This document shows positions 1 through 26,806 of a DNA stretch of 64,000 nucleotides, in pieces. A program made the translations under genes and the position numbers. The notes under the pieces were generated by a model. The model saw only the letters and a list, made by a program, of their open reading frames with translations. It had not been told where the DNA came from and searched no databases. The DNA is from Bacteroidales bacterium (GTDB lineage: Bacteria > Bacteroidota > Bacteroidia > Bacteroidales > UBA932), in assembly GCA_017439305.1 (NCBI GenBank), contig JAFSJK010000063.1, positions 14,367 through 78,366 of the forward strand, read 5' to 3'. Each line of letters opens with the position of its first letter. The first letter of the stretch is position 1.

Positions 1-1271
1 ATGCAGTCGATGGCCGGCAGGACCCACTTGCCATAGTGTCCGTTAGCGTTATCGTAGTTGCCGTCGAAATAGAAGTGGGCACGGAGTTTTCCGTCGGAGA
101 AGCCCTGGGTCAGTGCGCCGTCGGAGATTTCCAGGAGTACATACACCTTGTCGTCATAGTACACCTTCGCGCTCTTGAGGCCGCTCAGTTCGGCGCCGTC
201 GTAGCACTCCATCGTGGTGACATAGCTGGCAGGGAGATTGGCCCAGTCATCCGGATTGCCGTCGATGGTGACGCTGCCGCCCGCAGGGGCATCGCCGCCC
301 ATGCTCACGACCACAGGCTGGTCCTTCATGTTGCTGGCGCTCTTGTTGCCCCAGGTGTAGACCTTGATGGGCTGGCCATAGGTAACGCCCAGGTCGGCGA
401 GCGGGATACGGAGCTCGGTCTCGACGATGGCGTCGCCGAACATGGCGCCGGCGAGGGAATTCTCGGCGCAGACATACTCGTCACCCGATTCGCGGGCGCC
501 GGCCGGCGCGGTGGCCAGCATGGGATTGCCGGCGTCGTCCGCCAGGAAGAAATAGAGATACATCCATTTCTCGATACCCACGACGGCGTTGCCGTTGGCA
601 TCGGTCATGCCGGTGGCGACGTTGTTGTCGGCATCCACGGCCAGGTAGTAGTAACCACCACCCCACATCGCAGGATTGTTGTTGCGCTTGTGGTAGAAAT
701 AGAGATAATCCTTGTCGTAGGCGACCTTGAACTCCTTCAGCGGAGCGTCCTCATCATCGGAAGCGATACCGGTGGTCACGTCATCCCAGTCGGAGAAATC
801 ACCGTCAATCTTGATTTCGCTGTCGGAGGACGGCGGAGGAGTGGGTTCGACAGCCGGGGCCGTCTCGACGGTCAACGCCCTGGCGGTACCGAACTGCACG
901 CCGGCCAGCGAAGCGGCGAAGACGGCCGTGGTCTTCGTTCCGGGGGTCAGCTTGTCCGGGTCCACGAAAACCTTGCCGGTGACTTCGGATTCGCCCTTCT
1001 GCATGACCAGTTCCGTCGGATAGGTGATGCCGGCGCTGTTCATGGTGTTGGTTCCGTCCAGCGAGATGGCGATGGTGACATCGGAGGGAACGGGAGTGTC
1101 GGCAACGACCTTGAGCGTCGCTTCCGTCTCGGAGTTAGCCGTGGCTGAGAACGTGAACTTGACGGGCGTGCCGTCCGGGTTCAGGATCGGATTCACCTTC
1201 TCTTTCTCGCAGGAAGCGAAAGCGAAGGCGGCCATGACTGCAACGAACAGATACTTTGCAAATTTTCTCAT
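1..1271 (-). CDS. Surface lipoprotein with tandem IDGxFxDW (DOMON/CBM9-like) modules; 3' end runs off the window
   Basis: Not in the ORF track (open at the edge). My translation from ATG 1271 gives MRKFAKYLFVAVMAAFAFASCEKEK (lipobox) ... EIKIDGDFSDWDDV ... VTIDGNPDDWANL, with no stop before base 1. Confidence 0.8.
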   Translation of the reverse strand, partial: MRKFAKYLFVAVMAAFAFASCEKEKVNPILNPDGTPVKFTFSATANSETEATLKVVADTPVPSDVTIAISLDGTNTMNSAGITYPTELVMQKGESEVTGKVFVDPDKLTPGTKTTAVFAASLAGVQFGTARALTVETAPAVEPTPPPSSDSEIKIDGDFSDWDDVTTGIASDDEDAPLKEFKVAYDKDYLYFYHKRNNNPAMWGGGYYYLAVDADNNVATGMTDANGNAVVGIEKWMYLYFFLADDAGNPMLATAPAGARESGDEYVCAENSLAGAMFGDAIVETELRIPLADLGVTYGQPIKVYTWGNKSASNMKDQPVVVSMGGDAPAGGSVTIDGNPDDWANLPASYVTTMECYDGAELSGLKSAKVYYDDKVYVLLEISDGALTQGFSDGKLRAHFYFDGNYDNANGHYGKWVLPAIDC

Positions 1272-1310
1272 GGTGATATTAGTTAAATTTTGTGGTCTGT
1301 TTTCTACCTA

Positions 1311-1318
1311 CAAATATA
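1311..1318 (-). promoter_or_regulatory. Bacteroidetes -7 promoter box (TATATTTG)
   Basis: Matches TAnnTTTG, 40 bp upstream of ATG 1271. Confidence 0.55.
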
Positions 1319-1337
1319 TCGATAATATTCCGATTTT

Positions 1338-1382
1338 GTTCCGATTGGTTTCGAAATAATGTTTCGTTCGGTTTCGTTTTCG
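1338..1382. promoter_or_regulatory. Candidate AgaR operator (phased GTTTCG repeats)
   Basis: GTTCCG 1338/GTTTCG 1348 and GTTTCG 1361/GTTTCG 1371 at 10-bp spacing; same motif recurs near agaS and agaR. Confidence 0.55.
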
Positions 1383-1388
1383 AAATAC

Positions 1389-2666
1389 CTATTGGATATC
1401 AGCCTGATATTGTATCTCTTGGCCGGAAACGAGGTGGTCGCAGGCAATGGCCGGCCGGGAGGACTTGGACGCCTTGCAGGGGATCGTGACCCAGGCTTCC
1501 TCGCCCGGCATCAGGGTACGGAGGTCCAGGTCTCCCCGAACGCCCTCCACCTCCACGAAAGCGGAGCGGTAGATGGGAGCGACGCCCACATTGGCGATGA
1601 GGACGGACGCGCCCTCCCCTTCCTTGACCTGGAAATCCCGGATTTCAAACCGGTATCCCATGGACATGGCAGCCTCGGCGATGCGCTCCGGGGTCTGTTT
1701 CCCGGGCTGGTCGTTGCCGATGATGAACGTCATGTGGACCTTCGCCACCACATCTTCGAACACCCGTCCGTACATGCCTTCCTTGTCCAGGACATGCTTC
1801 TGGTCATAGTCGGAGTAGTAGCTGAACTCGCCTCCAGCGGGGGCTTTCTTGTAGCGGTCTTCGCCGAAGAACTTCCAGCCGGACCAGTTGTAACCGCTCC
1901 AGTCCTGGCACATGAAGGAGTCGTCGAAGTTGCCGAAGTTCAGGTCCAGCAGCTCTTTTTTCTTATGGAAAGGAGCATATTTCGCGTCGGAAGCATCGAT
2001 GGAGAAGAGCCACGGCGTATCCTGGAACCACTCGTCCATCTTGGGCAGGAACTGCGCCTGGAAGTCGTGCGAAGGGAAGGTCTGGCCGATAATGCAGGGG
2101 CCGTCATAGATGTGGTACTCCGCCCACAGGCCGAAACCCGTTTCCACGAAAGCCAGGCGGGGATCCTTGTCATACCGCTCGGCGAAACGGCGGTGGAACT
2201 CCATGTGGAAGCGCTGTAGTTCCTCGCAGCGCCAGTCGGGGAATTCCGTCTTGCGGCCTTCGCTCTTGGCGTTGGTGGCCTCATAACCCGGCCAGGACTT
2301 GATATAGTCCGGGACGGCGCAGGAGTAACCCGGATAGGTATAGCGGAAACGCACCACGACCTGATGGCCGCGGGCGGCCGCAGCCTCCAGCAGCTTGTCC
2401 ATGGGCGTCCAGTCGAACACGTCCTTTTCCTTGCACACGTCGTTGTACAGCATATAGGAGAACTCCAACTGCACATATTCTTTCTTCACGGAGCCGCTGG
2501 TGTTCCAAAGGACGATACCCGTCATCGGCTGCACGTGCGTGATGGACGACTGGAGAGGAATACGGGTGCCGTATTCTGCCGGCTTCTGGCCGGATTCGGG
2601 CTCCGTCTTGTTCTCGCAGGAACAGGAAACGAGGGCCAGGGACATAAGGAGGAACAGCTTCTTCAT
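1389..2666 (-). CDS. DUF4832-domain lipoprotein, putative glycoside hydrolase (TIM barrel)
   Basis: Lipobox LVSC; QPMTGIVLW N-terminus; FVETGFGLWAEYH; GGEFSYY; C-terminal MGYRFEI...NVGVAPIY typical of DUF4832. Confidence 0.7.
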   Translation of the reverse strand: MKKLFLLMSLALVSCSCENKTEPESGQKPAEYGTRIPLQSSITHVQPMTGIVLWNTSGSVKKEYVQLEFSYMLYNDVCKEKDVFDWTPMDKLLEAAAARGHQVVVRFRYTYPGYSCAVPDYIKSWPGYEATNAKSEGRKTEFPDWRCEELQRFHMEFHRRFAERYDKDPRLAFVETGFGLWAEYHIYDGPCIIGQTFPSHDFQAQFLPKMDEWFQDTPWLFSIDASDAKYAPFHKKKELLDLNFGNFDDSFMCQDWSGYNWSGWKFFGEDRYKKAPAGGEFSYYSDYDQKHVLDKEGMYGRVFEDVVAKVHMTFIIGNDQPGKQTPERIAEAAMSMGYRFEIRDFQVKEGEGASVLIANVGVAPIYRSAFVEVEGVRGDLDLRTLMPGEEAWVTIPCKASKSSRPAIACDHLVSGQEIQYQADIQ

Positions 2667-2667
2667 G

Positions 2668-3537
2668 TTACTCTCTGCTGAAAATCAGGACGCAGCTGAT
2701 GGCGGCCACAATACCGATGATCTGCGGCACGGTAGGGACGGCCGCGTAAAGGAGGAGGGAAATCACGCACATGATCACCGGGGCGCAGGCATCGGCCAGC
2801 GGAGCGATGACCATCGCCTTTCCATAGCGGTTGGCATATACCAGCGTGAAGGCGCCGATGGCGTTGAGGATCTGCACGAAGAACACTTTGACGGCCTCAC
2901 CCCAGCCGTCGGCTAGGACGTTGTTCTGTCCCTTGCCCATCAGCAAAGCCACGGGGATGAGCAGCACGGCCGAAATCGCCATGTACACGAACACGCTCTC
3001 CGCATCCGGGGTGTTGTTGTTCGCAAGCTTCATCACGAAAGCCTGGACGCCCCAGCAGATGAATACGATGGAGGCGAACAGGATCCAGATCCGGCTGGTA
3101 GCCGCACCGTCCTTGCTGTCGGGCAGGGCGAAGCAGACGAGGGCCACGAACGCCAGCGCGATGCCCAGGATGCCCAGCTTGGAAACTTTCTCCTTGAGGA
3201 CGGTGGCGGACAACAGCACCGTCACGATAGGCGCCACCGAGATCATCGGCATCACCAGATACGCCGGCGCATAGTCGAGAGCCAGGAACAATACGAGCTG
3301 CCCGCCGGCACCGAGCAGGCCCACAGCCAGGCTCAGCAGGGCCGGTTTCGTCCGGACGTCCAGCTTGAACTTGATGTTGACAAGGGCAGCCAGGGCGCAG
3401 GGAATCATGCTCAGGGCCCAAATCACGTAAACCATGGTCTTGGGGAGCGTGGTCTGGTCGCTGAATGCGCCCCAGATGCCCCAGGTAACCATCGTGATGA
3501 TGGCATATAACAGCCAGTTGTGCTTTTTCTGTGTCAT
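2668..3537 (-). CDS. DMT/EamA family transporter
   Basis: 289 aa, ~10 hydrophobic segments in two repeats, WGIWG motif. Confidence 0.85.
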   Translation of the reverse strand: MTQKKHNWLLYAIITMVTWGIWGAFSDQTTLPKTMVYVIWALSMIPCALAALVNIKFKLDVRTKPALLSLAVGLLGAGGQLVLFLALDYAPAYLVMPMISVAPIVTVLLSATVLKEKVSKLGILGIALAFVALVCFALPDSKDGAATSRIWILFASIVFICWGVQAFVMKLANNNTPDAESVFVYMAISAVLLIPVALLMGKGQNNVLADGWGEAVKVFFVQILNAIGAFTLVYANRYGKAMVIAPLADACAPVIMCVISLLLYAAVPTVPQIIGIVAAISCVLIFSRE

Positions 3538-3552
3538 AGTCGTCCGAAAGTA

Positions 3553-4689
3553 TTATTTCACGAAGGAGGCGACAAGGCGTCCCCATTCGTCGTTTTCGCG
3601 GATGCCGGTGAAAGCGGCGGAGCCGGGGCCCCACGCATAGAAGGGAACGGCGATGCCGTTATGGCTTTCGCTGGCGAAGAACACGCCGATCTCCCCTTTC
3701 TCCAGGTTCCCGTCCTGCAGGGTAAGGCAGCCGGTGGCATGGTCGGCGGTCATCACCACCAGGGTGTGCCCGTCGGCGGCCGCCCACTGGAGGACATCAC
3801 CCAGGGTACGGTCGAAGTCCAGGAGTTCCTCCATGGCCTTCGCGATGTCGTTCCCGTGCAGCCAGTCGTCAATGCAGGAGCCTTCCAGCATCATCACGAA
3901 GCCTTTTTCTCCGCTTTCACGGGACAGGATGTCCAGACCGCGGGCCACGGTGTGGCGGTACAGGTCGCCTCGCTCCATCACCACGGGCAGGTTATCCGGG
4001 GCCAGGATGCCGATGACCGGCAGTTCCGCCTGCATCAGTTCCTCTTCCGTACGGGCCACGGTATAGCCTGCCGCAGCCATTTCCTTCGTAATGTCACGCC
4101 CGTCGGTCCGCTTCACGGTGAACCAGTCCAGACCGCCGCCGGAGAGATAGTCCACGCCGCATTCCACATAATCTGCGATGAGGTCCTCCTGGTTATAGCG
4201 GTACTCGTTGTGGCAGCAGAAATCGCAAGGGGTCGCATCGGCGAAGTGGCAGGTGACGGCCACGCCGGTTTTCTTGCCCAGTTCCCGGGCCTTTACCAGG
4301 ATGGAAGGGATGTCCGTGCTGTCCGGCGCCGTACCCACATGGCTGTAGGCCGTCTTCTTGCCGGAAGAGAGGGCCGTTCCGCCCGCTCCGGAGTCCGTGA
4401 TGAGTTCATTGGTGCACCAGGTGCGGGACAGACCCACGTGGGTCATGTTGTCCAGATTCAGCTTGCCGTGGTTCAGCACCCAAGCGCAACTGACCTGTTC
4501 CAGGCCCATGCCGTCGCCGATCATGAAGATGATGTTGCGCACCTCGTTGTCCTGCGGCGGTTCCGCGACGGAAACGATGTCGTAGGTGTGCGGGGTGGCA
4601 TAATACTGCAGGGCGGCCTCTTTCTCCTTCTGCTTGCAGGAGACGGCCAGCAGGCCTGCGAACAAGGCAAGGACGGTAATCTTTCTCAT
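3553..4689 (-). CDS. Alkaline phosphatase (lipoprotein)
   Basis: Start reset to MRKITVLALFAGLLAVSC; NIIFMIGDGMG, TDSGAGGTA (Ser nucleophile), EGSCIDDWLH, TADH. Confidence 0.9.
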   Translation of the reverse strand: MRKITVLALFAGLLAVSCKQKEKEAALQYYATPHTYDIVSVAEPPQDNEVRNIIFMIGDGMGLEQVSCAWVLNHGKLNLDNMTHVGLSRTWCTNELITDSGAGGTALSSGKKTAYSHVGTAPDSTDIPSILVKARELGKKTGVAVTCHFADATPCDFCCHNEYRYNQEDLIADYVECGVDYLSGGGLDWFTVKRTDGRDITKEMAAAGYTVARTEEELMQAELPVIGILAPDNLPVVMERGDLYRHTVARGLDILSRESGEKGFVMMLEGSCIDDWLHGNDIAKAMEELLDFDRTLGDVLQWAAADGHTLVVMTADHATGCLTLQDGNLEKGEIGVFFASESHNGIAVPFYAWGPGSAAFTGIRENDEWGRLVASFVK

Positions 4690-4690: not shown

Positions 4691-6334
4691 TCAGTCCTTC
4701 GGAATGATGGCGTCATCCAGGCCGGTGAAATCGTAACGGTACAGATAGGAAGTGGAGCCGTAGTCGTCAGCCACCCAGATGCAGCTGTTGGCATGGTCGA
4801 CGCAGATGGATTCCGGATTCTCGATTCCCCGGGCGGAATAGAAGCCCAGCATGGTTTCGGCGTCGCCGGTGAGGGCGAAGAAGCGGCGGGATTCGGAATC
4901 GATGACCCAAAGCCAGTCGGTGAGCGGGTCATAGCACAGGTCGGCGATCTCGGTGATGGTGGGATACATCTCCCGCAGGCCCTTCCGCCACAGGACTTCG
5001 CCGGTTTCCAGGTTGCAGAGGTAGAGGTAGGACCCCGTCTGCGTCCCGGCATAGGCCAGCCCGTCCTTGTAGTAAGTGAGGCCTTCCAGGCCAGCGTTGC
5101 CGAAGCCCTTGGCATCGTCGATCTTGAGGACGGATTCCACCCCCTTGAACGAACTCGACGCGAAGATGTTTTCCATGCTCGCCGCCGGGATGCTGCACAC
5201 ACTGCTGGGTTCACCGCCGATCAGCAGGTCTCCGTTGTCATATCGCAGGGAGATGGCTTCCGCGTCGATGCCGCTGCCGCTGGTGGTCTTCAGGGACGCC
5301 TTGTTCAGCACTTCTCCTTCGAAAGAAAGCTGCGCGATTTCGCCGCTGTCGCCCACGCCCCAGAGGAAGGAGGCATCCGCGCTCAGCGAGAGGCCGGAAA
5401 GTTCATTGAGACTGACCGTGTACTTGGTGCGCTGCCCCATTTCCGGCATGCTGGGTTTGGGACCGGTGTAGGCTTCCAGCTTGGAGGTAATGTCGCCCAG
5501 TTCCAGCACCTTGCCGGCTTTCAGCATGCCGTTCTGGAGGCCGTCCTCCGTGTTCCGGGTATAGGCAGCAGGCCAGGCGCCGTCCTTGCCGAAATACAGC
5601 GTGAATCCGCCTTTCAGGGTGACGCCGCCGGGAAACCAGACCGTCGTGGTCTTTCCGTCACCCGCAAGCGTCATCTCCAGGAAAGGATAGCCGTCGGAAA
5701 CCACCTTGGAGAAACTGGTTTCCGCTGAAGAATGGGCGTTCGAGTACCCCTGGAAACGCAGACCGGGGCGCTGGGCGCCTGCGATGATTACCTTGTCATA
5801 GCCGCCGGAAACAGTGAAAGTGATGGCGGCCGAAGCGTCGTGGAAGGCAAAGTTGGCCCCCTCCAGATAGGCCTGGGCCAACAGGATGTCCGCTTTCGTG
5901 AACGTGGTCGTGGCGTCCATCAGGCCGTCTTCAGCCTGAACGGCAGAGGCGGGCCAGGCTGCATAGAGATTGTCCGGAGTGGCCAGATATTCAAACAGGC
6001 CGCTTTCGAGCTTGAGGGTAGCAGTCTTGCCGTCGGACGAGATGTCCGAGGCCTTCAGGGCATACGTCTTGGCTGCCGGTCCGTAGGAACCGTGCACCAG
6101 GATCTCGTCACCCGCTTCCCATTTCCCTTTCAGGGGCGAAACCGTGAAGGTATAGTCCCCGGCCTTGGGCTTTCCGTCGTCAACAGGCTGGTCTTTGTCC
6201 TTGTCTTTGTCCTTGTCCGGGTCCTGGGTTTCCTTGCCGGGATTCGGATCATCTTTCTGCCCGCAGGAGACGCAACACGGCAGGAAAGCCAGCGACACTG
6301 CGAGGGTGAGAATGGGGAGTAAGCTCTTTTTCAT
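4691..6334 (-). CDS. Lipoprotein: fimbrillin-like N-domain plus SdiA-regulated/phytase-like beta-propeller
   Basis: Lipobox VSC then QKDD; KWEAGDEILV and NLYAAWPA (fimbrillin-like); C-terminal NELSGL, DAEAI, GLEGL, PESI repeats of YjiK/SdiA-type propellers. Confidence 0.6.
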   Translation of the reverse strand: MKKSLLPILTLAVSLAFLPCCVSCGQKDDPNPGKETQDPDKDKDKDKDQPVDDGKPKAGDYTFTVSPLKGKWEAGDEILVHGSYGPAAKTYALKASDISSDGKTATLKLESGLFEYLATPDNLYAAWPASAVQAEDGLMDATTTFTKADILLAQAYLEGANFAFHDASAAITFTVSGGYDKVIIAGAQRPGLRFQGYSNAHSSAETSFSKVVSDGYPFLEMTLAGDGKTTTVWFPGGVTLKGGFTLYFGKDGAWPAAYTRNTEDGLQNGMLKAGKVLELGDITSKLEAYTGPKPSMPEMGQRTKYTVSLNELSGLSLSADASFLWGVGDSGEIAQLSFEGEVLNKASLKTTSGSGIDAEAISLRYDNGDLLIGGEPSSVCSIPAASMENIFASSSFKGVESVLKIDDAKGFGNAGLEGLTYYKDGLAYAGTQTGSYLYLCNLETGEVLWRKGLREMYPTITEIADLCYDPLTDWLWVIDSESRRFFALTGDAETMLGFYSARGIENPESICVDHANSCIWVADDYGSTSYLYRYDFTGLDDAIIPKD

Positions 6335-6340: not shown

Positions 6341-7039
6341 TTATAAGGCCAATGCGTAGCCGCTTTCGACCGTACCGTCGGCGGCCACCACAAAGTAAAC
6401 GGGTGTCATGTGAATGTCGAAAACGGCGGTACCGTTTTCCGGGAACAGGTATTCCCAGCCGGGGACGGCGGGTTCAGGCCCGTAGCCCAGGCCAATGGCC
6501 ATTTTTTTAACACCGCTCCACTGCGGGTCCGCGGAGAGTTTCTCCAGGGCTTCGCGGCAGGAGGGGCAGCCCAGGTCCAGTACCAGCACCAGCGTACGGG
6601 TGTCGAATCCGGCCCATCCGGGGACGATGGCCTTCGTCCCTTCCAGATTGTACCCGATCCATTCCCGCCGCTGCAGGAAAGGATCGCATTCACCCGGACC
6701 CAGGACGCCGTCGGCCGCCATCCGCTCCACGGCCTTGCCGTACAAGGCGGCATTGCGGCAGGGAGAGAGGAGGTTGTAGAAGGCGCCGTCCATCCATTCC
6801 GAGTAAACGTAATAGGCCACGGTGTCCTGCTTCAACTGGTCGAAGAGCACATCCAGGGCCGCAAGGGCATCCTCTTCCGGGGCCGCGACGGCCAGTTCGG
6901 CAAAATCGGCGAACTGGTCCTCGGCCGCGTGGAAGTCCGAATAATCAATGCTGTGGGTATTCCAGAAGTTACCGACGCCGGATGCCTGGCACCCCGCAAG
7001 GAGCGCCAGGCACAGGACAGCGGTAAAGGTTCTTTTCAT
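6341..7039 (-). CDS. DUF5106-like lipoprotein with C-terminal thioredoxin-like CxxC domain
   Basis: LAGC lipobox; NFWN, FYNLLSPCRN; LDLGCPSC. Confidence 0.6.
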   Translation of the reverse strand: MKRTFTAVLCLALLAGCQASGVGNFWNTHSIDYSDFHAAEDQFADFAELAVAAPEEDALAALDVLFDQLKQDTVAYYVYSEWMDGAFYNLLSPCRNAALYGKAVERMAADGVLGPGECDPFLQRREWIGYNLEGTKAIVPGWAGFDTRTLVLVLDLGCPSCREALEKLSADPQWSGVKKMAIGLGYGPEPAVPGWEYLFPENGTAVFDIHMTPVYFVVAADGTVESGYALAL

Positions 7040-20171: not shown

Positions 20172-20262
20172 CAAAGATAAGGAATATTTTTATACGAAAC
20201 AAAACGAAATACTTTTTTTACCCATAAATCGAAACCAAGTGAAATATTTTCGGTTTTTTTCG
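20172..20262. promoter_or_regulatory. Divergent agaR/pfkB promoter region with phased CGAAA/TTTCG repeats
   Basis: -7 box TATCTTTG (minus, 20172-20179); CGAAAC/CGAAAT 20195/20205; CGAAAC/TGAAAT 20230/20240; TTTCG 20248/20258. Confidence 0.6.
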
Positions 20263-20289: not shown

Positions 20290-21243
20290 ATGAAAAAGTA
20301 CGACATCGCAGCCATCGGCGAACTCAACGTAGACATCATCCTGAACGGCATCGAATCGGAGCCGGAAATCGGCAAGGAAAAGTTCTGCAAGGACATGATC
20401 GTCACACTGGGCAGTTCCACGGCCATCTTTGCCGCCAATGCGGCCGCCCTGGGCAGCAAGGTCTGCTTCGTGGGCCTGGTCGGCCGGGATTCTTTCGGCC
20501 AGCTCGTCCGCACTTCCCTGGAAGCCAAGGGCGTCGCCACCCAGTTCATCGGCGAGGGGGACACCCCCACCGGCGCCACCATCTGCATGAATTACGGCGA
20601 AGACCGCGCCAACCTCACCTATCAGGGTTCCATGGACGTGATGGGTTTCGACCAGATTGACAAGAGCGTTTTCGACCTGGCCAGGCACATCCACCTTTCC
20701 TCCCTGTTCATGCAGAGCGCCCTGCTGAGGGACATCCATCAGGTACTGGACCTCGCGGCGGAAAAAGGCTGCACGGTGTCGCTGGACACCCAGTGGGACC
20801 CGATGGAGAAATGGGCGCTGGATTATCCCAGGGTGCTGCCCAAGGTAACGGTTTTCATGCCCAACGAGAAAGAGTTGTGCGCGCTTACCGGCAAGGATTC
20901 GCTGGATGACGCCATCGCCGAGGTGCTCCCCTGCCTGGGCGGAATCATGCTGGTGAAATGCGGCTCCAAGGGTTCCCTGCTGGTGAAGAAGGACGGCTCC
21001 CGGAAACTGCTCCCCGCTTTCCTGAACAAGGAAGTCGTGGATGCCATCGGCGCCGGCGACAGTTTCAACTCCGGCTTCATCAGCGCCTTCGTGAAAGGAC
21101 TTCCGGCCGAAGTCTGCCAGATAACCGGCAACCTTACGGGCGCGGTGAACACCACCGCCGCGGGCGGAACCGGTGCCTTCACCTCCCTGGAGGACGTCCG
21201 GAAGGTGTGCAAGGAGCGCTTCGGACAGGAACTCGCCCTGTAG
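20290..21243 (+). CDS. PfkB family carbohydrate kinase
   Basis: Start reset to MKKYDIAAIGELNVD; GSSTAIFAANAAALG; DAIGAGDSFNSGF. Confidence 0.9.
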   Translation: MKKYDIAAIGELNVDIILNGIESEPEIGKEKFCKDMIVTLGSSTAIFAANAAALGSKVCFVGLVGRDSFGQLVRTSLEAKGVATQFIGEGDTPTGATICMNYGEDRANLTYQGSMDVMGFDQIDKSVFDLARHIHLSSLFMQSALLRDIHQVLDLAAEKGCTVSLDTQWDPMEKWALDYPRVLPKVTVFMPNEKELCALTGKDSLDDAIAEVLPCLGGIMLVKCGSKGSLLVKKDGSRKLLPAFLNKEVVDAIGAGDSFNSGFISAFVKGLPAEVCQITGNLTGAVNTTAAGGTGAFTSLEDVRKVCKERFGQELAL

Positions 21244-21277: not shown

Positions 21278-22468
21278 ATGAAAACGAGAAAACTGCTTGC
21301 CTTGCTGCTGTTGTTGCCGCTGCTCACTTACTGCGACAAGAAGAACCCGGACCCGATCGAGGATGATCCCATCGAGAAACCCGAACCGGGACCGGTGGAT
21401 CCCGTCGACGAGGATCCCTATGCCGATGCGGCCACCGAGGTGAAAAACGGGGACCTCATCCTCGTGACCAACGAGAGAATGCAGGCTTTCCTGGAAGACG
21501 TAACCTACCCCGAGCGGGATTATAGCGAAACGCACATCCTGGACGAAAAATACGCCCCCACCGCCCCCGGCAACGCGGACAAGCCCCAGGAATACTCCAT
21601 CCGCTGGACGAAAGCCAACGCAGAGGGCGACAAGATCGTGAAACTCTGGGAGGATGACGGCTGGAGCCGCGAAATGACCGTCGAAAGCGGCGAATACTAT
21701 GTGAACATCATCAACCTCCGCCCGAACGCCCATTATCATTATGAGGTGAAAGGCGCGGGCGGCAAGACGGTGACTTCCGGCGAATTCGACACCAAGGGCC
21801 TTGTGTATCAAGTCCTTTTCAAGGCAAACGTGCGCAACGCGCGTGACCTGGGCGGCTGGAAGGCAGCCCGCGGCAAGACGGTGAAATACCGGATGATCTA
21901 CCGCGGCGGACGCCTGCAGCCCAGCACGCTCACCAGCAAGCGCGGCAAGGAAGACCTGAAGGCCCAGGGCATCCTGGCCCAGCTGGACCTGCGCGGCAAG
22001 AGCGACGTGCTGAGCGGTCCGACCGTGGACTACATGGACTTCTGCGCCCCTGTCATCGAGGAGGGCTACACCCAGATGCTCCGTGATGACGGCGCCAAGG
22101 TGAAGCAGTGCTTCGAATATATCACCCAATGCGTGAAGGACAACAAGCCCGTCTACTATCACTGCTCCCTGGGCCGCGACCGTACCGGCACCCTCACGAT
22201 GCTCCTCCTGGGCGTCCTGGGCGTGAACGAGGGCGACATTTCCAAGGAATACGAACTCACCCAGTTCGCTCCCTACGAGTGGGCCACCTCCGGTGGCGAG
22301 ACCACGAAGATGACGCGCCGGGCGGACTACAAAGGCGCCGCCAACTACATCTGGAACAACTTCGTCAGCGATGGCGAGACCTTTGCCCAGGGCGTGATGA
22401 AGTATCTGCTTTCCATCGGCGTGGAAGAGAAGACCATCCTCGATTTCTGCGCCCTGATGCTTGAATAA
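21278..22468 (+). CDS. Lipoprotein tyrosine-phosphatase-like (CX5R) enzyme with FN3-like domain
   Basis: Start MKTRKLLALLLLLPLLTYC; NARDLGGW, IYRGG, LDLR, HCSLGRDRTG. Confidence 0.85.
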   Translation: MKTRKLLALLLLLPLLTYCDKKNPDPIEDDPIEKPEPGPVDPVDEDPYADAATEVKNGDLILVTNERMQAFLEDVTYPERDYSETHILDEKYAPTAPGNADKPQEYSIRWTKANAEGDKIVKLWEDDGWSREMTVESGEYYVNIINLRPNAHYHYEVKGAGGKTVTSGEFDTKGLVYQVLFKANVRNARDLGGWKAARGKTVKYRMIYRGGRLQPSTLTSKRGKEDLKAQGILAQLDLRGKSDVLSGPTVDYMDFCAPVIEEGYTQMLRDDGAKVKQCFEYITQCVKDNKPVYYHCSLGRDRTGTLTMLLLGVLGVNEGDISKEYELTQFAPYEWATSGGETTKMTRRADYKGAANYIWNNFVSDGETFAQGVMKYLLSIGVEEKTILDFCALMLE

Positions 22469-22489
22469 TCAACAAAACACTGCATAGCC

Positions 22490-24028
22490 ATGAACAAGAA
22501 ATGCTGGGCCTTGATGCTCCTCCTCCCCCTGCTCGCTTTCTGCGGGAGCAAGGACGATCCCCAAAAAACGGACCCCGAACCCAAACCGGATGTCAAAGCC
22601 GAAATCGTTATCGACGGTGAGAGTGAATTCAACGTCGGCTGCGAAGAGGGATCCGGCACTTTGTCTTTCACGTCCAATGTCGATTGGACGGCAACGCCTG
22701 ACGATTCCTGGCTGACCGTGACCCCGACCAGCGGCAAGGCATCCAAGTCTCCCGTCACCGTCACGTTCTCTTACGGACAGAACCCGAACCAGAAGAACCG
22801 GTCCACCTATATCGTCCTCTCCGCCGTCGGTGCGGAAAAGAACATCTCCGTCGTCCAGGCCGGCGATCCCATGGCCGGTGCGGCTACGGAACTCAAGAAC
22901 GGTGACCGGGTCCTGGCCAACAGCCCGCTGGTAGAAAAGTTCCTTACCGAGGTGACTTACGAGGACAAGACCTATAAGGAATACACCAAGATCTTCGACT
23001 ACTACGGCGGTTTCGACGGCGTGAACCTCACCTGGGAAAACTGGGAGACCGAGTGGCCCGACGGTGACAAGCCCGAATCTTACAGCCTCCGCTGGAAGAA
23101 AGAGGACATGGAGTCCGGCAAGATCAAGCTCCATCTGGAGGACAAGCTCGGCTGGTCCGGCGACATGGAGATTGCGGAGGGTTCCCGTTATGTAAACATC
23201 ACCAACCTGGTTCCCAACGACAAGTATACCTACAAGGTGACCACGGCCAGCGGAAAGGTCCTCACCGAGGGCGGTTTCAGCACGACGGGGACTATCCACC
23301 AGTGCTTCTTCTCCGGTAACGTCCAGAAAAAGAAAGGCGTCACCCTCAAGGGCGAAGGCGCACGCAACTGCCGTGACCTGGGCGGCTGGAAGACGCTGGA
23401 CGGCAAGACGGTCAAGTACCGCATGGTGTACCGCGGCGGCCGCCTGAACGAGAAGTGGACCCCGTATCCGCTCAATGAGCAGGGCGAGAAAGAAGTCCTG
23501 TTCGAGGGCATCGGCGCCGAGCTGGATCTCCGCGGCAAGTCCGACGTGATCCACGAGCCGGCCGTCGAAGGCCTGCTCCACTGCTCCCCCGTCATCGAGC
23601 AGGGCGGCAAGACGATGCTCACCGCCGACAAGGAGAAGACCAAGGAGTGCTTCGAATTCGTGGTGAACTGCCTGCGCCAGGGCAAGCCGGTCCATTTCCA
23701 CTGCTCCCTGGGCCGCGACCGCACCGGCACCCTGAGCATCCTGCTGATGGGCCTGCTGGGCGTCCGCGAGGGTGACATCGCCAAGGAATATGAACTGACC
23801 TATTTCGCTCCCGTGGGTTACAGCGTGTCCTCCTCCGACAAGGCGAGCAACACCAAGCCCCTCTTCAAGAACACCCGCATGGAATGGGTGTACAGCGACG
23901 TGGTTCCCTACTTCTGGGAGCTCGCCGGAGAGGGAACCTTCGCCCAGGGCGTCGAGAATTACCTCCTGAACGTTGCCGGTGTCAGCCAGAAAGACATCGA
24001 TGATTTCCGCAACATGATGCTTGAATAA
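22490..24028 (+). CDS. Lipoprotein tyrosine-phosphatase-like enzyme with BACON domain (paralog)
   Basis: Lipobox AFC; FTSNVDWTATPDDSWLTVTPTSG (BACON); NCRDLGGW; HCSLGRDRTG. Confidence 0.85.
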   Translation: MNKKCWALMLLLPLLAFCGSKDDPQKTDPEPKPDVKAEIVIDGESEFNVGCEEGSGTLSFTSNVDWTATPDDSWLTVTPTSGKASKSPVTVTFSYGQNPNQKNRSTYIVLSAVGAEKNISVVQAGDPMAGAATELKNGDRVLANSPLVEKFLTEVTYEDKTYKEYTKIFDYYGGFDGVNLTWENWETEWPDGDKPESYSLRWKKEDMESGKIKLHLEDKLGWSGDMEIAEGSRYVNITNLVPNDKYTYKVTTASGKVLTEGGFSTTGTIHQCFFSGNVQKKKGVTLKGEGARNCRDLGGWKTLDGKTVKYRMVYRGGRLNEKWTPYPLNEQGEKEVLFEGIGAELDLRGKSDVIHEPAVEGLLHCSPVIEQGGKTMLTADKEKTKECFEFVVNCLRQGKPVHFHCSLGRDRTGTLSILLMGLLGVREGDIAKEYELTYFAPVGYSVSSSDKASNTKPLFKNTRMEWVYSDVVPYFWELAGEGTFAQGVENYLLNVAGVSQKDIDDFRNMMLE

Positions 24029-24038
24029 ATACGCAGAT

Positions 24039-25439
24039 ATGAAAAAACTGTTAGTACTCGCGGCCCTCGCCGCCGTAGCCTTGTCTTGTGCCAAGAAGGA
24101 CGAGTACGGCTACACTATCAAAGACAACCAGATCGTCTACAACACACCTGCCCGTCCGGCAGACCAGCAGTCCATGCTGGGCTTCGCCGCCGAACCCATC
24201 GAGCACGTCCGGGTCGGGCTCGTCGGCCTGGGCGACCGCGGCACGGGCGCCGTCCGCCGCTTCCCCTTCATCGAGGATGCCACCATCGTCGCCCTCTGCG
24301 ACCTGATGCCCGATCGCGTGGAGAATGCGCAGAAGATCCTTGAAGAGCTGGGAGCCCCCCGCGCCCAGTATGAGTACAGCGGAGAAGAAGGCTACAAGCA
24401 GCTTTGCGAACGGGACGACATAGACCTCGTATACCTGGCCGTGCCCTGGCAGCTCCACACCCCCATCGCCGTCTATGCGATGGAGCACGGAAAGCATGTC
24501 GCCATCGAAGTTCCTGCCGCCACTTCCATCAAGGAGTGCTGGGACCTGGTGAACACCTCTGAGCGCACGCGGAAGCACTGCATGATGCTGGAGAACTGCT
24601 GCTACGATTTCTTCGAGCTCACCTGCCTGAACATGATCCAGCAGGGCCTGTTCGGCGAGGTCGTCCACGTGGAAGGTTCCTACTGCCACAACCTGGAGCC
24701 CTATTGGGACCAGTACCAGGGTGACTGGCGGATGACCTACAACAAGGACCACCACGGCGACGTGTATCCCACGCACGGCATCGGCCCCATCTGCCAGGAC
24801 CTCAACATCCACCGCGGTGACAGGATGGAAGTCCTGGTGTCGATGGACACGGACGCTTTCGCCGGCCAGGAAATGGCTGACAAGCGCTATGGCAAGGGCA
24901 CCGTGGCGAAGTACGCCAACGGTGACAACACCTCCACCCTCATCCGCACCCATAACGGCAAGTCCATCCTCGTGGAGCACAACGTGGTGACCCCTCGTCC
25001 CTACAACCGGATGTACCAGGTGACGGGCACCAAGGGATTTGCGAACAAGTATCCCAACGAAGGTCTCGCCTTGGGTTCCGACCTGGTGAAGGCACCCGTC
25101 GCCTACGATGACCTGGATGCCGAAGAGTACATGTCCGATGCCGACCGTGACGTCGTCATGGAGCAGTACAAGCACCCCATTCTCAAGGAGTTGGAGGAAA
25201 AAGCCCGCGAAGTGGGCGGCCACGGCGGAATGGACTTCATCATGGACTACCGGCTCATCTACTGCCTCAAGCACGGCCTGCCGCTGGACCAGGATGTGTA
25301 TGACGCCGCCGAATGGAGCTCCCTCGTGGAACTGACCGAGGTTTCCATCAACCATGGCAGCATGCCGGTCGTGATGCCGGACTTCACCCGCGGTGAATGG
25401 AACAAGATCCAGGGTCTGACCTTCGCCAAAGCGGAATGA
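24039..25439 (+). CDS. GH109-like Gfo/Idh/MocA enzyme (NAD+-dependent alpha-N-acetylgalactosaminidase)
   Basis: VRVGLVGLGDRG, GKHVAIEVP, MMLENCCY, YPTHG, GGHGGMD, DVYDAAEWS; lipobox LSC. Confidence 0.85.
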   Translation: MKKLLVLAALAAVALSCAKKDEYGYTIKDNQIVYNTPARPADQQSMLGFAAEPIEHVRVGLVGLGDRGTGAVRRFPFIEDATIVALCDLMPDRVENAQKILEELGAPRAQYEYSGEEGYKQLCERDDIDLVYLAVPWQLHTPIAVYAMEHGKHVAIEVPAATSIKECWDLVNTSERTRKHCMMLENCCYDFFELTCLNMIQQGLFGEVVHVEGSYCHNLEPYWDQYQGDWRMTYNKDHHGDVYPTHGIGPICQDLNIHRGDRMEVLVSMDTDAFAGQEMADKRYGKGTVAKYANGDNTSTLIRTHNGKSILVEHNVVTPRPYNRMYQVTGTKGFANKYPNEGLALGSDLVKAPVAYDDLDAEEYMSDADRDVVMEQYKHPILKELEEKAREVGGHGGMDFIMDYRLIYCLKHGLPLDQDVYDAAEWSSLVELTEVSINHGSMPVVMPDFTRGEWNKIQGLTFAKAE

Positions 25440-26806
25440 CCATGTCCGGGAAACTGTTTTGCCTTTTCACGGCCGTCGCCTTTGCGACGGCCGTGATGGT
25501 AGGATGCAACAAGCCCGAGCCTGAAAAGGAACCGGATCCTGTTGAACTGGAGGATCTCAAACTCTCCGTGCCCGTCAAGGACAACTGGGTTTTCTCCGGC
25601 AAGCCTACGCTTACCGTCAACGTGGAGAATCCGAATCCGGTCGCCGCGAAAGCGGAAGTGAAGGTCCGGATCGCCACCGACACGAAGAAGGAAGTGACCA
25701 CTTTCACCAAGGAGGCGGAGGTGCCCGCCAAAGGGTCGATGGACATTGACATGACCGTTCCCGAGGAACTGGCTCCGGGCTTCTACAAGGCTTCCTGCTA
25801 TGTCAACAACCGGTCGGCCCGGATGTTCAACTTCGGCGTATCTCCCGAAAAGATCGTCTCCGCGCCCGACAAACAGGCCGACTTCGACACCTTCTGGGAC
25901 GCGACCATCACCCAGCTCGAGAACGTGGAAATGAACGAAACCCTCATCGAGCTTACGGACCGGAGTTCCAGCGCGGTGAAAGTGTATTTCGTTGAGATGC
26001 AGTCGATTCCGGATGGTCTGGAGGGCGATCCCGTCCTCATCCACGGTTACTACCTGGAGCCGCAGGACGGCCAGAAGCACCCCGTCCTCATCCACTATTT
26101 CGGCTACGACGACCTCAAGCCCGGCGGCAAGCTGGACTGCCCGTCCGGCGGTTCCAAGGCGGAGTTCGCCGAGTTCTACCTGTCCACCCGCGGCCAGATC
26201 ATCAACAACCGGACGGCCGCCCAGCGGAAGGACGGTGTGGAGAAAGATTTCGTGAACACCTACGGGGACTGGTTCGCCTTCAACTTCGGCGACCGCGACG
26301 GTTACTACTACCGCGGCGCCTTCATGGACTGCGTCCAGGCCGTCCGCTTCATGGCGACGCGGGAGACCAGCGACATGGACAACGTCTTTGCCGAAGGCTC
26401 CAGCCAGGGTGGCGCATTCTCCTATGCCGCAGCCGCGCTGAGCCCCTACCCGCTCCGGGCCATCGCTCCCTGCGTGGCCTTCCTCGGTGACTTCCCGGAC
26501 TACTTCAGCATCGTGGACTGGCCCGCGAACGTGGCCCTGAAGAACAAGGGTTCGATGACTGACGCGGAAATGTACACCTTCCTGTCCTACTTCGACACGA
26601 AAAACCTGGCCACGCGCATCACCTGCTCCGTCATCGCGTGCAGCGGCCTGCAGGACGGAACCTGCCCGCCGCACACCAACACGGCCCCGTACAACAACCT
26701 GACCGTCCAGGACAAGCAGATGTTCTACTACCCGCAACTGGCCCACCAGATTCCCAGCGACTGGAACAGCAAGTACATGAAGTTCTTCCGCGACCGGATC
26801 AAATAA
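25436..26806 (+). CDS. CE7/acetylxylan esterase family lipoprotein
   Basis: YYRGAFMDC, GSSQGG nucleophile elbow, GLQDGTCPP; ATGA overlap with GH109. Confidence 0.8.
   Translation: MTMSGKLFCLFTAVAFATAVMVGCNKPEPEKEPDPVELEDLKLSVPVKDNWVFSGKPTLTVNVENPNPVAAKAEVKVRIATDTKKEVTTFTKEAEVPAKGSMDIDMTVPEELAPGFYKASCYVNNRSARMFNFGVSPEKIVSAPDKQADFDTFWDATITQLENVEMNETLIELTDRSSSAVKVYFVEMQSIPDGLEGDPVLIHGYYLEPQDGQKHPVLIHYFGYDDLKPGGKLDCPSGGSKAEFAEFYLSTRGQIINNRTAAQRKDGVEKDFVNTYGDWFAFNFGDRDGYYYRGAFMDCVQAVRFMATRETSDMDNVFAEGSSQGGAFSYAAAALSPYPLRAIAPCVAFLGDFPDYFSIVDWPANVALKNKGSMTDAEMYTFLSYFDTKNLATRITCSVIACSGLQDGTCPPHTNTAPYNNLTVQDKQMFYYPQLAHQIPSDWNSKYMKFFRDRIK

What the first reader, a model, noticed from the sequence alone, without database searches (positions are those of the whole stretch)
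1..26806. ~27-kb AgaR-controlled PUL for an unidentified galactosamine/GalNAc- and phosphate-bearing glycan
Seen: divergent arms around agaR encode AgaS, KbaZ, PfkB, DMT, GH109, CE7, three DUF4832 proteins, alkaline phosphatase, two CX5R phosphatases, a phytase/SdiA-like propeller and SusCD, but no classical GH2/20/92 or sulfatase. Established: AgaR/AgaS/AgaZ serve GalN(Ac) use and GH109 cleaves alpha-GalNAc. Inference: the target is probably a phosphorylated or acetylated GalN(Ac) polymer (microbial teichoic acid, capsule, exopolysaccharide or fungal galactosaminogalactan) rather than a plant or mucin glycan. That would be a PUL for eating other microbes' surfaces.
Basis: partly seen in the sequence, partly recalled or inferred. 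Interest (0 to 1): 0.75.

Follow-up and report, generated by a model that had tools for sequence, protein, structure and literature searches.

The report
Galactosamine-polymer feeding locus with phosphatases
A rumen Bacteroidales bacterium carries one repressor-controlled gene cluster that most likely lets it import and eat a galactosamine-rich, phosphate-associated slime polymer made by other microbes (of the bacterial Pel or fungal galactosaminogalactan kind), a food source for which no such cluster has been described.

Summary
About 27.6 kb, running 834 bp past the window start, form two divergent operons around an AgaR-like DeoR repressor. They encode SusC/SusD, two clear and one marginal DUF4874/DUF4832 TIM-barrel hydrolases, GH109, CE7, an alkaline phosphatase, two CX5R phosphatases, a DMT permease, AgaS, a GatZ-like protein and a PfkB kinase. 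Thirteen products are lipoproteins.

The set is co-conserved in three congeners and many ruminant-gut MAGs. A conserved GTTTCR direct-repeat operator sits at all promoters.

A wider PUL variant occurs in Paludibacteraceae, Dysgonomonas, Alkaliflexus and Alistipes. It joins the same hydrolase family and AgaS to homologues of a GH36 alpha-galactosaminidase and a GH31 alpha-galactosidase. Some of these carry purple acid phosphatases instead.

One DUF4832 enzyme is published as dispersing Pel, an alpha-1,4-GalNAc/GalN polymer. The best reading is therefore a PUL for Pel- or galactosaminogalactan-like exopolysaccharide that carries or binds phosphate. The substrate is inferred, not shown. The "phytase-like" propeller is a YjiK-type propeller with no phosphatase evidence.

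The scan noted related loci on other DNA before (e1-2003826, e1-3860747).

The parts
1..1271 (-). G1: 701-aa surface lipoprotein, cut by the window edge (continues 834 bp upstream, contig C59:13532-15637). No Pfam family. Likely a glycan-binding protein.
   Evidence: no family; weak CBM9-like/Big_2 leads. A 675-aa homologue lies inside the PUL in L020 and L023. Lipobox FASC.
1348..1376 (+). Operator-like GTTTCG repeats upstream of G1
   Evidence: GTTTCGTTCGGTTTCG at 1361, with a further half-site at 1348.
1389..2666 (-). G2: divergent DUF4832-like lipoprotein (marginal family member)
   Evidence: 22.7 bits, cut-off 29.2. (hhalign weak). (keeps W-x-E-Y and GGE). Conserved at 61-85% identity in 18 related loci.
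2668..3537 (-). G3: EamA/DMT inner-membrane permease, candidate GalN(Ac) importer
   Evidence: 95.8 bits. Conserved in 43 of 79 related loci.
3553..4689 (-). G4: alkaline phosphatase lipoprotein
   Evidence: PF00245, 182 bits. Start and lipobox. D-S-G active-site motif.
4691..6334 (-). G5: surface lipoprotein with an N-terminal beta-sandwich region and a C-terminal YjiK/SdiA-regulated-type beta-propeller. Function unknown.
   Evidence: pLDDT 87; YjiK Z 24.5. Invariant acidic and His residues. 0 of 400 other Bacteroidales genomes carry it.
6341..7039 (-). G6: DUF5106-domain lipoprotein, function unknown
   Evidence: Conserved in 36 of 79 loci.
7045..7767 (-). G7: acidic-linker surface lipoprotein, paralogue of G10 (likely glycan-binding)
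   Evidence: lipobox plus poly-Glu. (33% identity to G10).
7790..9163 (-). G8: DUF4874+DUF4832 TIM-barrel glycoside hydrolase lipoprotein
   Evidence: 147 and 182 bits. Motifs NPERG, WGEWYY, GGHNDC and MGGETC.
9176..10570 (-). G9: DUF4874+DUF4832 TIM-barrel glycoside hydrolase lipoprotein
   Evidence: AF2 pLDDT 86: barrel plus beta-sandwich. (beta-amylase and GH5, Z 13). (AFDB DUF4832 clusters, TM 0.8).
10657..11385 (-). G10: surface lipoprotein next to SusD, likely SGBP
   Evidence: Conserved in 59 of 79 loci.
11437..13212 (-). SusD-like lipoprotein
13230..16775 (-). SusC-like TonB-dependent transporter with a C-terminal OmpA domain
   Evidence: Plug, CarbopepD_reg_2; OmpA 65.5 bits at residues 1083-1171. 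Linker seen.
16839..18065 (-). G13: GatZ/KbaZ-like protein. Either a tagatose-6-P 4-epimerase or an aldolase helper subunit.
   Evidence: 94 bits against cut-off 569. (3txv, 2e-18). 82-91% identical in related loci.
18070..19194 (-). G14: AgaS-family sugar-phosphate deaminase/isomerase
   Evidence: agaS_fam, 341 bits. (3odp 4e-73, 3c3j 2e-67).
19235..19351 (.). Operator half-sites between the agaR stop and the agaS start
   Evidence: GTTTCAGACAGTTTCG at 19336. Position is conserved in 6 loci.
19358..20149 (-). G15: DeoR-family, AgaR-like repressor
   Evidence: (AgaR is the best model, 237 bits, cut-off 260).
20195..20262 (.). Divergent promoter region with two operators: TTTCGTTTTGTTTCG (agaR side) and TTTTCGGTTTTTTTCG (pfkB side)
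   Evidence: 15-mer conserved in 6 loci. (exact 15-mer occurs only twice in the 3-Mb genome)..
20290..21243 (+). G16: PfkB-family sugar or sugar-phosphate kinase
   Evidence: nearest are YdjH and ribokinases; specificity open.
21278..22468 (+). G17: Y_phosphatase3 (CX5R) lipoprotein
   Evidence: HCSLGRDRTG.
22490..24028 (+). G18: BACON + FN3 + Y_phosphatase3 (CX5R) surface lipoprotein
24039..25439 (+). G19: GH109 N-acetylgalactosaminidase lipoprotein
   Evidence: (6t2b 8e-86, 2ixa 5e-69). GGHGG loop.
25436..26806 (+). G20: CE7/AXE1-type serine esterase lipoprotein with a 150-aa N-terminal extension
   Evidence: 152.8 bits. GSSQG. 59-63% identical in distant type-B PULs.

Best explanation
This is an accessory, AgaR-like-repressor-controlled polysaccharide utilisation locus of a ruminant-gut Bacteroidales bacterium. 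Its likely substrate is an alpha-linked galactosamine / N-acetylgalactosamine polymer of the Pel or galactosaminogalactan type that carries, or is complexed with, phosphate groups.

Proposed mechanism (all steps inferred unless marked as shown):
1. Surface lipoproteins G1, G7, G10 and SusD bind the polymer.
2. Surface DUF4874/DUF4832 hydrolases (G8, G9, perhaps G2) cut the chain.
3. The BACON-tagged and plain CX5R phosphatases and the alkaline phosphatase remove phosphate that would block hydrolysis or transport.
4. SusC imports the oligomers.
5. In the periplasm, GH109 removes terminal GalNAc and CE7 removes acetyl groups. In relatives, a GH36 alpha-galactosaminidase homologue and a GH31 alpha-galactosidase finish depolymerisation.
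6. The DMT permease takes up the monosaccharide.
7. A kinase yields GalN-6-P, which AgaS converts to tagatose-6-P plus ammonia.
8. Tagatose-6-P enters glycolysis by one of two routes. Either the GatZ-like protein acts as a 4-epimerase to give fructose-6-P, or PfkB phosphorylates it and a class II aldolase encoded elsewhere cleaves the product.
9. The DeoR repressor binds GTTTCR direct repeats at all promoters and is released by a pathway intermediate.

Shown here: gene content, lipoprotein signals, co-conservation, the conserved operator motif, and family memberships. Inferred: the substrate, the enzyme specificities, and the order of steps.
For: Gene content and export signals.

Synteny: the whole set, phosphatases included, is conserved in G009, G012, G021, in L020, L022, L023 and in about 30 ruminant MAG loci. 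The locus is patchy, present in 3 of 24 congeners and 0 of 16 other families, as expected of an accessory PUL.

Operator: a 15-mer is conserved in 6 loci whose intergenic DNA is otherwise diverged. 3 of 16 genome-wide strict matches fall in about 450 bp of PUL intergenic DNA.

GalN link:
- AgaS matches 3c3j and 3odp, and the best regulator model is AgaR.
- AgaS lies 1-3 kb from the DUF4832 PUL also in Paludibacteraceae, Dysgonomonas and Alkaliflexus.

Alpha-GalN/GalNAc/Gal link:
- GH109.
- The gene after pfkB in all three congeners and in type-B PULs is a homologue of F. plautii GH36 alpha-galactosaminidase (6e-56; PMC11762096).
- The GH31 of G012 and type-B PULs matches GH31 alpha-galactosidase (6e-156).

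DUF4832 precedent: S. intermedius SIR_1591 (TIM barrel plus DUF4832, 468 aa) disperses Pel aggregates as well as PelA does (PMC12345266). The G9 model has the same architecture and the same beta-amylase-like neighbours.

Phosphate link:
- AlkP and CX5R phosphatases are conserved in type-A loci.
- Unrelated purple acid phosphatases, one fused to a beta-helix domain, sit in Paludibacteraceae type-B PULs.
- This genome also fuses GH18 to the same CX5R domain.
- Gram-positive pel operons with a DUF4832 gene also carry a secreted CotH kinase and a polyphosphate polymerase.

Expression: contigs 95-99% identical to the locus occur in sheep and cattle gut RNA libraries.
Against: No substrate was tested.

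The DUF4832 family is very large (4247 clusters at 50% identity), so specificities may differ.

The published evidence for SIR_1591 is an aggregate-dispersal assay, not a defined bond cleavage.

Neither Pel nor fungal galactosaminogalactan is known to be phosphorylated.

The window's own PUL lacks the GH36 and GH31 genes; their homologues lie on other contigs.

No NagA-type deacetylase was found in the genome at 92.6% completeness, so the fate of GalNAc is unclear.

Most type-B PULs showed no phosphatase within 10 kb.

The RNA-library contigs come from relatives and could include DNA carry-over.
Confidence: 0.5

Rival explanations
1. The target is a teichoic-acid-like or capsular phosphoglycan whose backbone contains GalNAc joined through phosphodiester bonds (for example GalNAc-1-phosphate or GalNAc-polyol-phosphate repeats of Gram-positive walls). 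The phosphatases act after phosphodiester cleavage, and the DUF4832 enzymes cut the glycosidic links.
For: Three bona fide phosphatases are core, mostly surface-exposed members. Non-homologous phosphatases occur in type-B PULs. Rumen Gram-positive walls are abundant (established knowledge).
Against: No glycerophosphodiesterase or other recognisable phosphodiesterase was found in the locus. CX5R and alkaline phosphatases are monoesterases (established knowledge). Most type-B PULs with the same hydrolases lack phosphatases, so phosphate is not part of the conserved core. The alpha-galactosidase and alpha-galactosaminidase homologues fit a Gal/GalN/GalNAc chain better.
Confidence: 0.2
2. The locus harvests alpha-GalNAc-capped host or dietary glycoconjugates (salivary or intestinal mucin cores, blood-group-A-like epitopes). 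It would follow the two-step deacetylase plus galactosaminidase route known from Flavonifractor plautii.
For: GH109 and the GH36 FpGalNase homologue are known from mucin and blood-group glycan degradation. The carriers live in animal guts.
Against: None of the usual mucin enzymes (GH2, GH20, GH29/95, GH33, GH84, sulfatases, M60 peptidases) is in the locus. Up to three endo-type TIM-barrel hydrolases and several phosphatases have no role on short O-glycans. The rumen, where most carriers were sampled, has little mucus (established knowledge).
Confidence: 0.1
3. The locus degrades head groups of inositol-phosphate glycolipids (plant or fungal glycosyl-inositol-phosphoryl-ceramides, GPI-type anchors). 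The phosphatases would act on inositol phosphates.
For: Y_phosphatase3 members include PTP-type phytases (PMC6409689). A histidine acid phosphatase sits with the GH36 homologue on contig C7. A second PUL with a ceramidase-like gene and GH20 shares the exact 15-mer operator.
Against: The locus has no inositol catabolic genes. The hexosamine of these lipids is GlcN rather than GalN (established knowledge). The propeller is not phytase-like by structure. The AgaS/tagatose branch is unexplained under this reading.
Confidence: 0.05

Closest known systems
E. coli / Shewanella aga (GalNAc/GalN) catabolic clusters under the DeoR-type repressor AgaR
   Same: A DeoR-family autoregulated repressor sits next to agaS and a GatZ/KbaZ-family gene. 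AgaS-family deaminase feeds a tagatose-phosphate branch. The repressor gene is divergent from, or adjacent to, its targets (PMC4694137).
   Different: There is no PTS, no AgaA/NagA deacetylase and no KbaY/AgaY aldolase in the locus. A DMT permease and a PfkB kinase take their place. The catabolic genes are fused to a SusCD uptake and depolymerisation system. All three aga-type proteins score below equivalog cut-offs.
Sus-like polysaccharide utilisation loci of Bacteroidota
   Same: An adjacent SusC/SusD pair, surface glycan-binding lipoproteins, lipoprotein glycosidases and esterases, and one local regulator.
   Different: The regulator is a DeoR repressor rather than an HTCS, SusR or ECF/anti-sigma system. 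The cytoplasmic catabolic pathway is inside the PUL. The main hydrolases belong to a family not yet in the classical CAZy repertoire. Three phosphatases are core members. SusC carries an OmpA domain.
Hydrolases for alpha-1,4-GalNAc/GalN exopolysaccharides: PelA hydrolase domain, Sph3, Ega3, and S. intermedius SIR_1591 (TIM barrel + DUF4832)
   Same: G8 and G9 carry the same Pfam DUF4832 module, have the same size (about 465 aa against 468 aa) and the same predicted barrel-plus-beta-sandwich architecture with beta-amylase-like neighbours as described for SIR_1591.
   Different: Those enzymes belong to the producer's own biosynthetic operon and trim or disperse its matrix. Here the enzymes are lipoproteins of a consumer's uptake locus. 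Direct sequence comparison with SIR_1591 was not possible.
Flavonifractor plautii two-step A-antigen route (GalNAc deacetylase + GH36 galactosaminidase FpGalNase)
   Same: A GH36 homologue of FpGalNase (6e-56) is a member of the orthologous PULs. This implies that free-amine GalN ends are produced and cleaved.
   Different: In this genome the homologue lies on another contig (C7), next to a CX5R phosphatase, a histidine acid phosphatase and a CotH kinase. No homologue of the F. plautii deacetylase was recognised.

Membership tests
Sus-like PUL | Adjacent susC (TonB-dependent transporter) and susD genes | tested here: met
   Plug and CarbopepD_reg_2 at 13230-16775; SusD_RagB and SusD-like_3 at 11437-13212.
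Sus-like PUL | Co-oriented glycan-degrading enzymes and a local regulator, conserved together | tested here: met
Sus-like PUL | Induction by, and growth on, the cognate glycan | not testable with these tools
   Only the presence of near-identical contigs in ruminant RNA libraries could be shown.
aga (GalN/GalNAc) regulon | AgaR: DeoR-type repressor with operators at its own and target promoters | tested here: inconclusive
   AgaR is the best NCBIfam model, but 237 bits is below the cut-off of 260. Conserved GTTTCR repeats lie at four promoter regions. Binding was not tested.
aga (GalN/GalNAc) regulon | AgaS GalN-6-P deaminase/isomerase | tested here: met
   Met at family level: 3c3j 2e-67 and 3odp 4e-73. 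agaS_fam scores 341 bits, below the subfamily cut-off of 529.
aga (GalN/GalNAc) regulon | KbaY/AgaY class II tagatose-bisphosphate aldolase partner of KbaZ | tested here: not met
   None in the locus. Class II aldolases occur only on C13 and at the end of contig C86. Dysgonomonas-type PULs do carry one.
aga (GalN/GalNAc) regulon | AgaA/NagA GalNAc-6-P deacetylase and PTS uptake | tested here: not met
   TIGR00221 was not found in the genome at 92.6% completeness. An EamA permease replaces the PTS. Type-B PULs carry an Amidohydro_2 gene that is absent here.
DUF4874/DUF4832 glycoside hydrolases (SIR_1591 type) | Both Pfam modules above cut-off | tested here: met
   G8 and G9 score 147-191 bits. 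G2 does not meet it (22.7 bits).
DUF4874/DUF4832 glycoside hydrolases (SIR_1591 type) | TIM barrel followed by a beta-sandwich, with nearest solved folds beta-amylase or clan GH-A | tested here: met
   AF2 model pLDDT 86. VIA-align gives beta-amylase and GH5 at Z 13. This matches the description in PMC12345266.
DUF4874/DUF4832 glycoside hydrolases (SIR_1591 type) | Sequence relatedness to SIR_1591 itself, and hydrolysis of alpha-1,4-GalNAc polymer | not tested
   The SIR_1591 sequence could not be obtained with the tools. Activity needs the bench.
GH109 | NAD-binding Rossmann domain + GH109 C-domain, close to characterised members, GGHGG loop | tested here: met
   (130.7 bits). (6t2b 8e-86, 2ixa 5e-69). 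(GGHGG at residue 393).
CE7 acetyl esterases | AXE1 domain with GxSxG nucleophile | tested here: met
   (152.8 bits). (GSSQG). Whether it removes O- or N-acetyl groups is not testable here.
PTP-fold phosphatases (Y_phosphatase3) | HCX5R(S/T) P-loop in a Y_phosphatase3 domain | tested here: met
   (106 and 97.6 bits). (HCSLGRDRTG in both). Substrate unknown.
Beta-propeller phytase | Phytase-like domain above cut-off and a phytase as nearest fold | tested here: not met
   PF13449 scores 24.8 bits, below 27.6. Nearest folds are YjiK (Z 24.5) and glutaminyl cyclases (Z 22); phytase 1poo reaches Z 14.8 among generic propellers.

The most novel reading that the evidence does not exclude
The locus is the catabolic mirror of the Gram-positive pel operons that combine a DUF4832 hydrolase with a secreted CotH kinase and a polyphosphate polymerase. 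Under this reading, rumen Firmicutes make a phosphorylated or polyphosphate-complexed Pel-type GalNAc/GalN matrix. This Bacteroidales PUL strips the phosphate with surface CX5R and alkaline phosphatases, then depolymerises the chain and burns the galactosamine. That would mean Pel-type biofilm polymers carry a so far unseen phosphate modification, and that biofilm matrix is a cross-fed nutrient in the gut.
Probability: 0.2. Interest if true: 0.85.

Novelty: new variant of a known kind. Interest (0 to 1): 0.66.

Why it matters
Pel and galactosaminogalactan are major biofilm and virulence polymers. Their known degrading enzymes all come from the producers themselves. A dedicated consumer locus would have three consequences:
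- It would show that these matrices are recycled as food in gut ecosystems.
- It would supply a set of natural, surface-active enzymes (DUF4832 hydrolases, GH36 and GH31 partners, glycan phosphatases) with defined teamwork.
- It would give the large uncharacterised DUF4874/DUF4832 family (over 4000 clusters at 50% identity) a testable substrate.

Two findings raise a further question. Non-homologous phosphatases recur in two PUL variants, and phosphate-metabolism genes sit in Gram-positive pel operons. Together they make it directly testable whether these polymers are phosphate-modified.

Tried and rejected
1. Direct comparison of G8/G9 with S. intermedius SIR_1591 was not possible. No tool gave access to that sequence. 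Three look-ups of distant family members landed in other contexts: one next to Amidohydro_2, one in an ABC-transporter sugar locus, and one on a short contig. None landed in a pel operon.

2. Foldseek against the PDB gave only generic TIM-barrel hits for G9 and WD40/NHL hits for G5. VIA-align was more informative.

3. The idea that the propeller is a phytase was rejected.

4. The idea that the APH-family kinase next to the permease in G009 and G021 is a mere neighbour was revised. It is also conserved in type-B PULs. In this genome, however, its 87%-identical orthologue lies on contig C2 between a GH3 and a nucleotidyltransferase, so it is not listed as a part.

5. The PRK/uridine-kinase-domain gene left of G1 was rejected as a member, because it has no counterpart in any related locus.

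6. CotH is not a neighbour of any of the 79 related loci, so the CotH link rests on contig C7 and on the literature only.

7. The GTTTCR operator was not found in type-B loci.

8. Literature searches for a described Pel, GAG or teichoic-acid PUL found none. One search was wasted on a bad term.

9. The GH31 on contig C1 beside a propeller paralogue resembles alpha-xylosidases, not GalNAc-ases, so that truncated locus was left uninterpreted.

Full report
**Anatomy.** The window is contig C59:14367-78366 of a 2.99-Mb, 92.6%-complete, roughly 59% G+C Bacteroidales genome. Related records are ruminant-gut MAGs, some labelled Candidatus Cryptobacteroides. Codon-position G+C picks one clear frame per gene.

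Pfam, NCBIfam and PDB sequence searches give two divergent operons.

The minus arm runs as follows:
- agaR-like DeoR (19358-20149)
- AgaS-family SIS (18070-19194)
- GatZ/KbaZ-like (16839-18065)
- SusC with an OmpA tail (13230-16775)
- SusD (11437-13212)
- lipoprotein G10
- two DUF4874+DUF4832 proteins (9176-10570, 7790-9163)
- lipoprotein G7
- a DUF5106 lipoprotein
- a propeller lipoprotein (4691-6334)
- alkaline phosphatase (3553-4689)
- EamA permease (2668-3537)
- a divergent DUF4832-like protein (1389-2666)
- a 701-aa lipoprotein that runs 834 bp past the window start

The plus arm runs as follows:
- PfkB (20290-21243)
- two CX5R phosphatases, the second with BACON and FN3 modules
- GH109
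- CE7

Start-codon review shows 13 lipoprotein signals, many followed by acidic stretches. Gene spacing is operon-like. Catalytic motifs are intact. The flanks are unrelated: UvrA and a uridine-kinase-domain gene on the left, and GH97 plus two GH13 on the right.

**Co-conservation.** The G9 family is patchy. It occurs in 3 of 24 congeners and in none of 16 other families sampled. The propeller protein was found in 0 of 400 other Bacteroidales genomes.

Where the locus exists, the whole set travels together despite rearrangements. This holds for G009, G012 and G021, for three metagenome contigs, and for about 30 of 79 loci recovered from species-representative genomes. I call this form type A.

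All three congeners carry one extra gene after pfkB. It is a 608-aa protein with a strong match to the Flavonifractor plautii GH36 alpha-galactosaminidase (9awt 6e-56, 8x1b 1e-55). G012 adds a GH31 that matches GH31 alpha-galactosidases (6e-156). In this genome the GH36 homologue sits on contig C7.

**A wider variant.** Type B occurs in Paludibacteraceae, Dysgonomonas, Alkaliflexus, Alistipes, Tidjanibacter and a Bacteroides MAG. Its gene order is:
- AgaS, 1-3 kb upstream
- PfkB or a class II aldolase
- an Amidohydro_2 protein
- the GH36 homologue
- SusC and SusD
- a G10-like lipoprotein
- DUF4832
- the GH31 alpha-galactosidase type
- EamA
- CE7 (59-63% identical to the window's)
- an APH-family kinase

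In a Paludibacteraceae subset there are also two purple acid phosphatases, one fused to a beta-helix and Big_2 module. The conserved core across orders is therefore DUF4832, alpha-glycosidases for Gal/GalN/GalNAc, AgaS with the tagatose-phosphate branch, and a DMT permease. Phosphatases of unrelated families were added at least twice.

**Regulation.** Upstream of the repressor gene, a 15-mer (TTTCGTTTTGTTTCG) is conserved in six loci whose intergenic DNA is otherwise diverged. It lies just upstream of a Bacteroidetes-type TAnnTTTG promoter element.

Further GTTTCR pairs at a 10-bp period lie at three places: the pfkB promoter (20247), directly after the agaR stop and at the agaS promoter (19235-19351), and upstream of the last gene (1348-1376).

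A strict pattern has 16 matches in the genome. Three of them lie in about 450 bp of PUL intergenic DNA. This supports one repressor controlling both arms, but binding is untested.

E. coli AgaR is a DeoR-type autoregulator of agaZ and agaS (PMC4694137). I recall its operator as being rich in TTTC repeats, but I could not verify that here.

The exact 15-mer occurs only once more in the genome. That copy lies upstream of a DeoR paralogue (32% identity) beside a second SusCD locus with a ceramidase-like gene and a GH20.

**The hydrolases.** G9 folds with confidence (pLDDT 86) into a TIM barrel followed by a beta-sandwich. Its nearest solved folds are beta-amylases and GH5 enzymes at Z about 13, with no close relative. 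AlphaFold DB holds many DUF4832 clusters at TM about 0.8.

The family is large, with 4247 clusters at 50% identity. Conserved Glu residues follow strands 4 and 7 (WGEWYY and MGGETC).

The only functional datum I found is from S. intermedius. SIR_1591 is a 468-aa TIM-barrel plus DUF4832 protein described as beta-amylase- and beta-galactosidase-like. It disperses Pel-dependent aggregates as well as the PelA hydrolase does, and that polymer is GalNAc-rich (PMC12345266).

In Streptococci and Clostridia, the DUF4832 gene accompanies pel genes together with a secreted CotH kinase, a polyphosphate polymerase and DUF4956 (bioRxiv 10.1101/768473).

**The phosphate question.** Three gene products are solid phosphatases: AlkP at 182 bits and two HCX5R proteins. 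At least one of these is surface-tagged by BACON.

The propeller is not a phytase by any test. It is a YjiK-type propeller (Z 24.5) related in fold to bacterial glutaminyl cyclases. Its role is unknown, although it keeps many invariant acidic residues.

Elsewhere in the same genome, the CX5R domain is fused to a GH18 (contig C13). On contig C7 another copy sits in a small cluster with a CotH kinase, next to the GH36 homologue and a histidine acid phosphatase. This argues that the CX5R domain works on glycans in this lineage.

Whether the phosphate is covalently bound to the polymer or belongs to a bound polyanion such as polyphosphate cannot be told from sequence.

**Catabolism.** AgaS membership is firm at family level. 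The GatZ-like protein is remote from E. coli KbaZ and GatZ (94 bits against a cut-off of 569). Its best solved relative is the S. meliloti protein 3txv. PfkB has no specific assignment.

The locus has no class II aldolase. The genome has one on C13 and a fragment on C86. Two routes from tagatose-6-P therefore remain open: 4-epimerisation by the GatZ-like protein, or PfkB plus an aldolase encoded elsewhere.

NagA was not found. A PIG-L-domain fusion protein exists on C65. How GalNAc is deacetylated is an open point; CE7 is the only esterase in the locus.

**Expression.** Near-identical DNA occurs in cattle, sheep and other ruminant gut metagenomes. Four RNA libraries hold contigs 95-99% identical to G9, G10, susC, susD, the GatZ-like gene, agaS and GH109. 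This is weak evidence that related loci are transcribed in vivo. It says nothing about the inducer.

**Verdict.** The enzyme set across the PUL family comprises a Pel-type endo-hydrolase family, GalNAc-ase, galactosaminidase and alpha-galactosidase homologues, and AgaS catabolism. This fits an alpha-linked Gal/GalN/GalNAc exopolysaccharide (Pel or galactosaminogalactan-like) better than teichoic acid, mucin or plant glycans. In the ruminant type-A form, phosphate is a lineage-specific extra.

No published PUL of this kind was found in the library searched. Earlier notes of this scan describe related loci in other genomes and reached similar readings.

Noticed in passing
window 13263-13529 (C-terminal 160 aa of SusC, 13230-16775): The SusC-like transporter continues past its last barrel strand. 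A Pro/Ala and VEKIVEK-repeat linker leads into a complete OmpA peptidoglycan-binding domain (65.5 bits).
   Followed up: partly
genome contig C44:36150-45316 (L032:150-9316): A second SusCD locus with a neutral-ceramidase-like gene and a GH20, next to a DeoR paralogue (32% identical to the PUL repressor). Its upstream region holds the only other exact copy of the 15-mer operator TTTCGTTTTGTTTCG in the genome. This may be a cross-regulated, possibly glycosphingolipid-directed, locus.
   Followed up: partly
genome contig C7:26551-33557 (L027:7551-14557): A small cluster of four genes: a histidine acid phosphatase, a GH36 alpha-galactosaminidase homologue (orthologue of the gene found inside the PUL in congeners), a CX5R phosphatase, and an 800-aa secreted CotH kinase with LTD, Fn3_assoc and CHB_HEX_C modules.
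   Followed up: partly
genome contig C13:41278-43515 (L029:7278-9515): A single 745-aa protein fuses a GH18 (EndoS-like TIM barrel) to a Y_phosphatase3 CX5R domain. This suggests a phosphatase acting on phosphorylated N-glycans or chitin-like glycans.
   Followed up: no
genome contig C1:1-4858 (L035): The contig starts inside a paralogue of the propeller protein (44% identity over the last 148 aa). This is followed by a GH31 of alpha-xylosidase type and an EamA permease. It is probably a second related locus, truncated by the assembly.
   Followed up: partly
window 26933-32595: GH97 and two GH13 genes (one cyclomaltodextrinase-like), convergent with the PUL's plus arm. This is an ordinary starch/maltodextrin gene set and not part of the finding.
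   Followed up: no
L104:14635-20851 (Alkaliflexus imshenetskii DSM 15055): Three further DUF4832 paralogues (893, 571 and 511 aa, 32-37% identical to G9) lie in tandem after the type-B PUL of a cultured organism. This could be a useful experimental system.
   Followed up: no
AlphaFold DB cluster list for the G9 model: One DUF4832-fold cluster representative (1173 aa) is annotated as a 2',3'-cyclic-nucleotide phosphodiesterase/3'-nucleotidase. This is another physical link between this hydrolase fold and a phosphoesterase. Several other representatives appear fungal, judging by their annotations.
   Followed up: no
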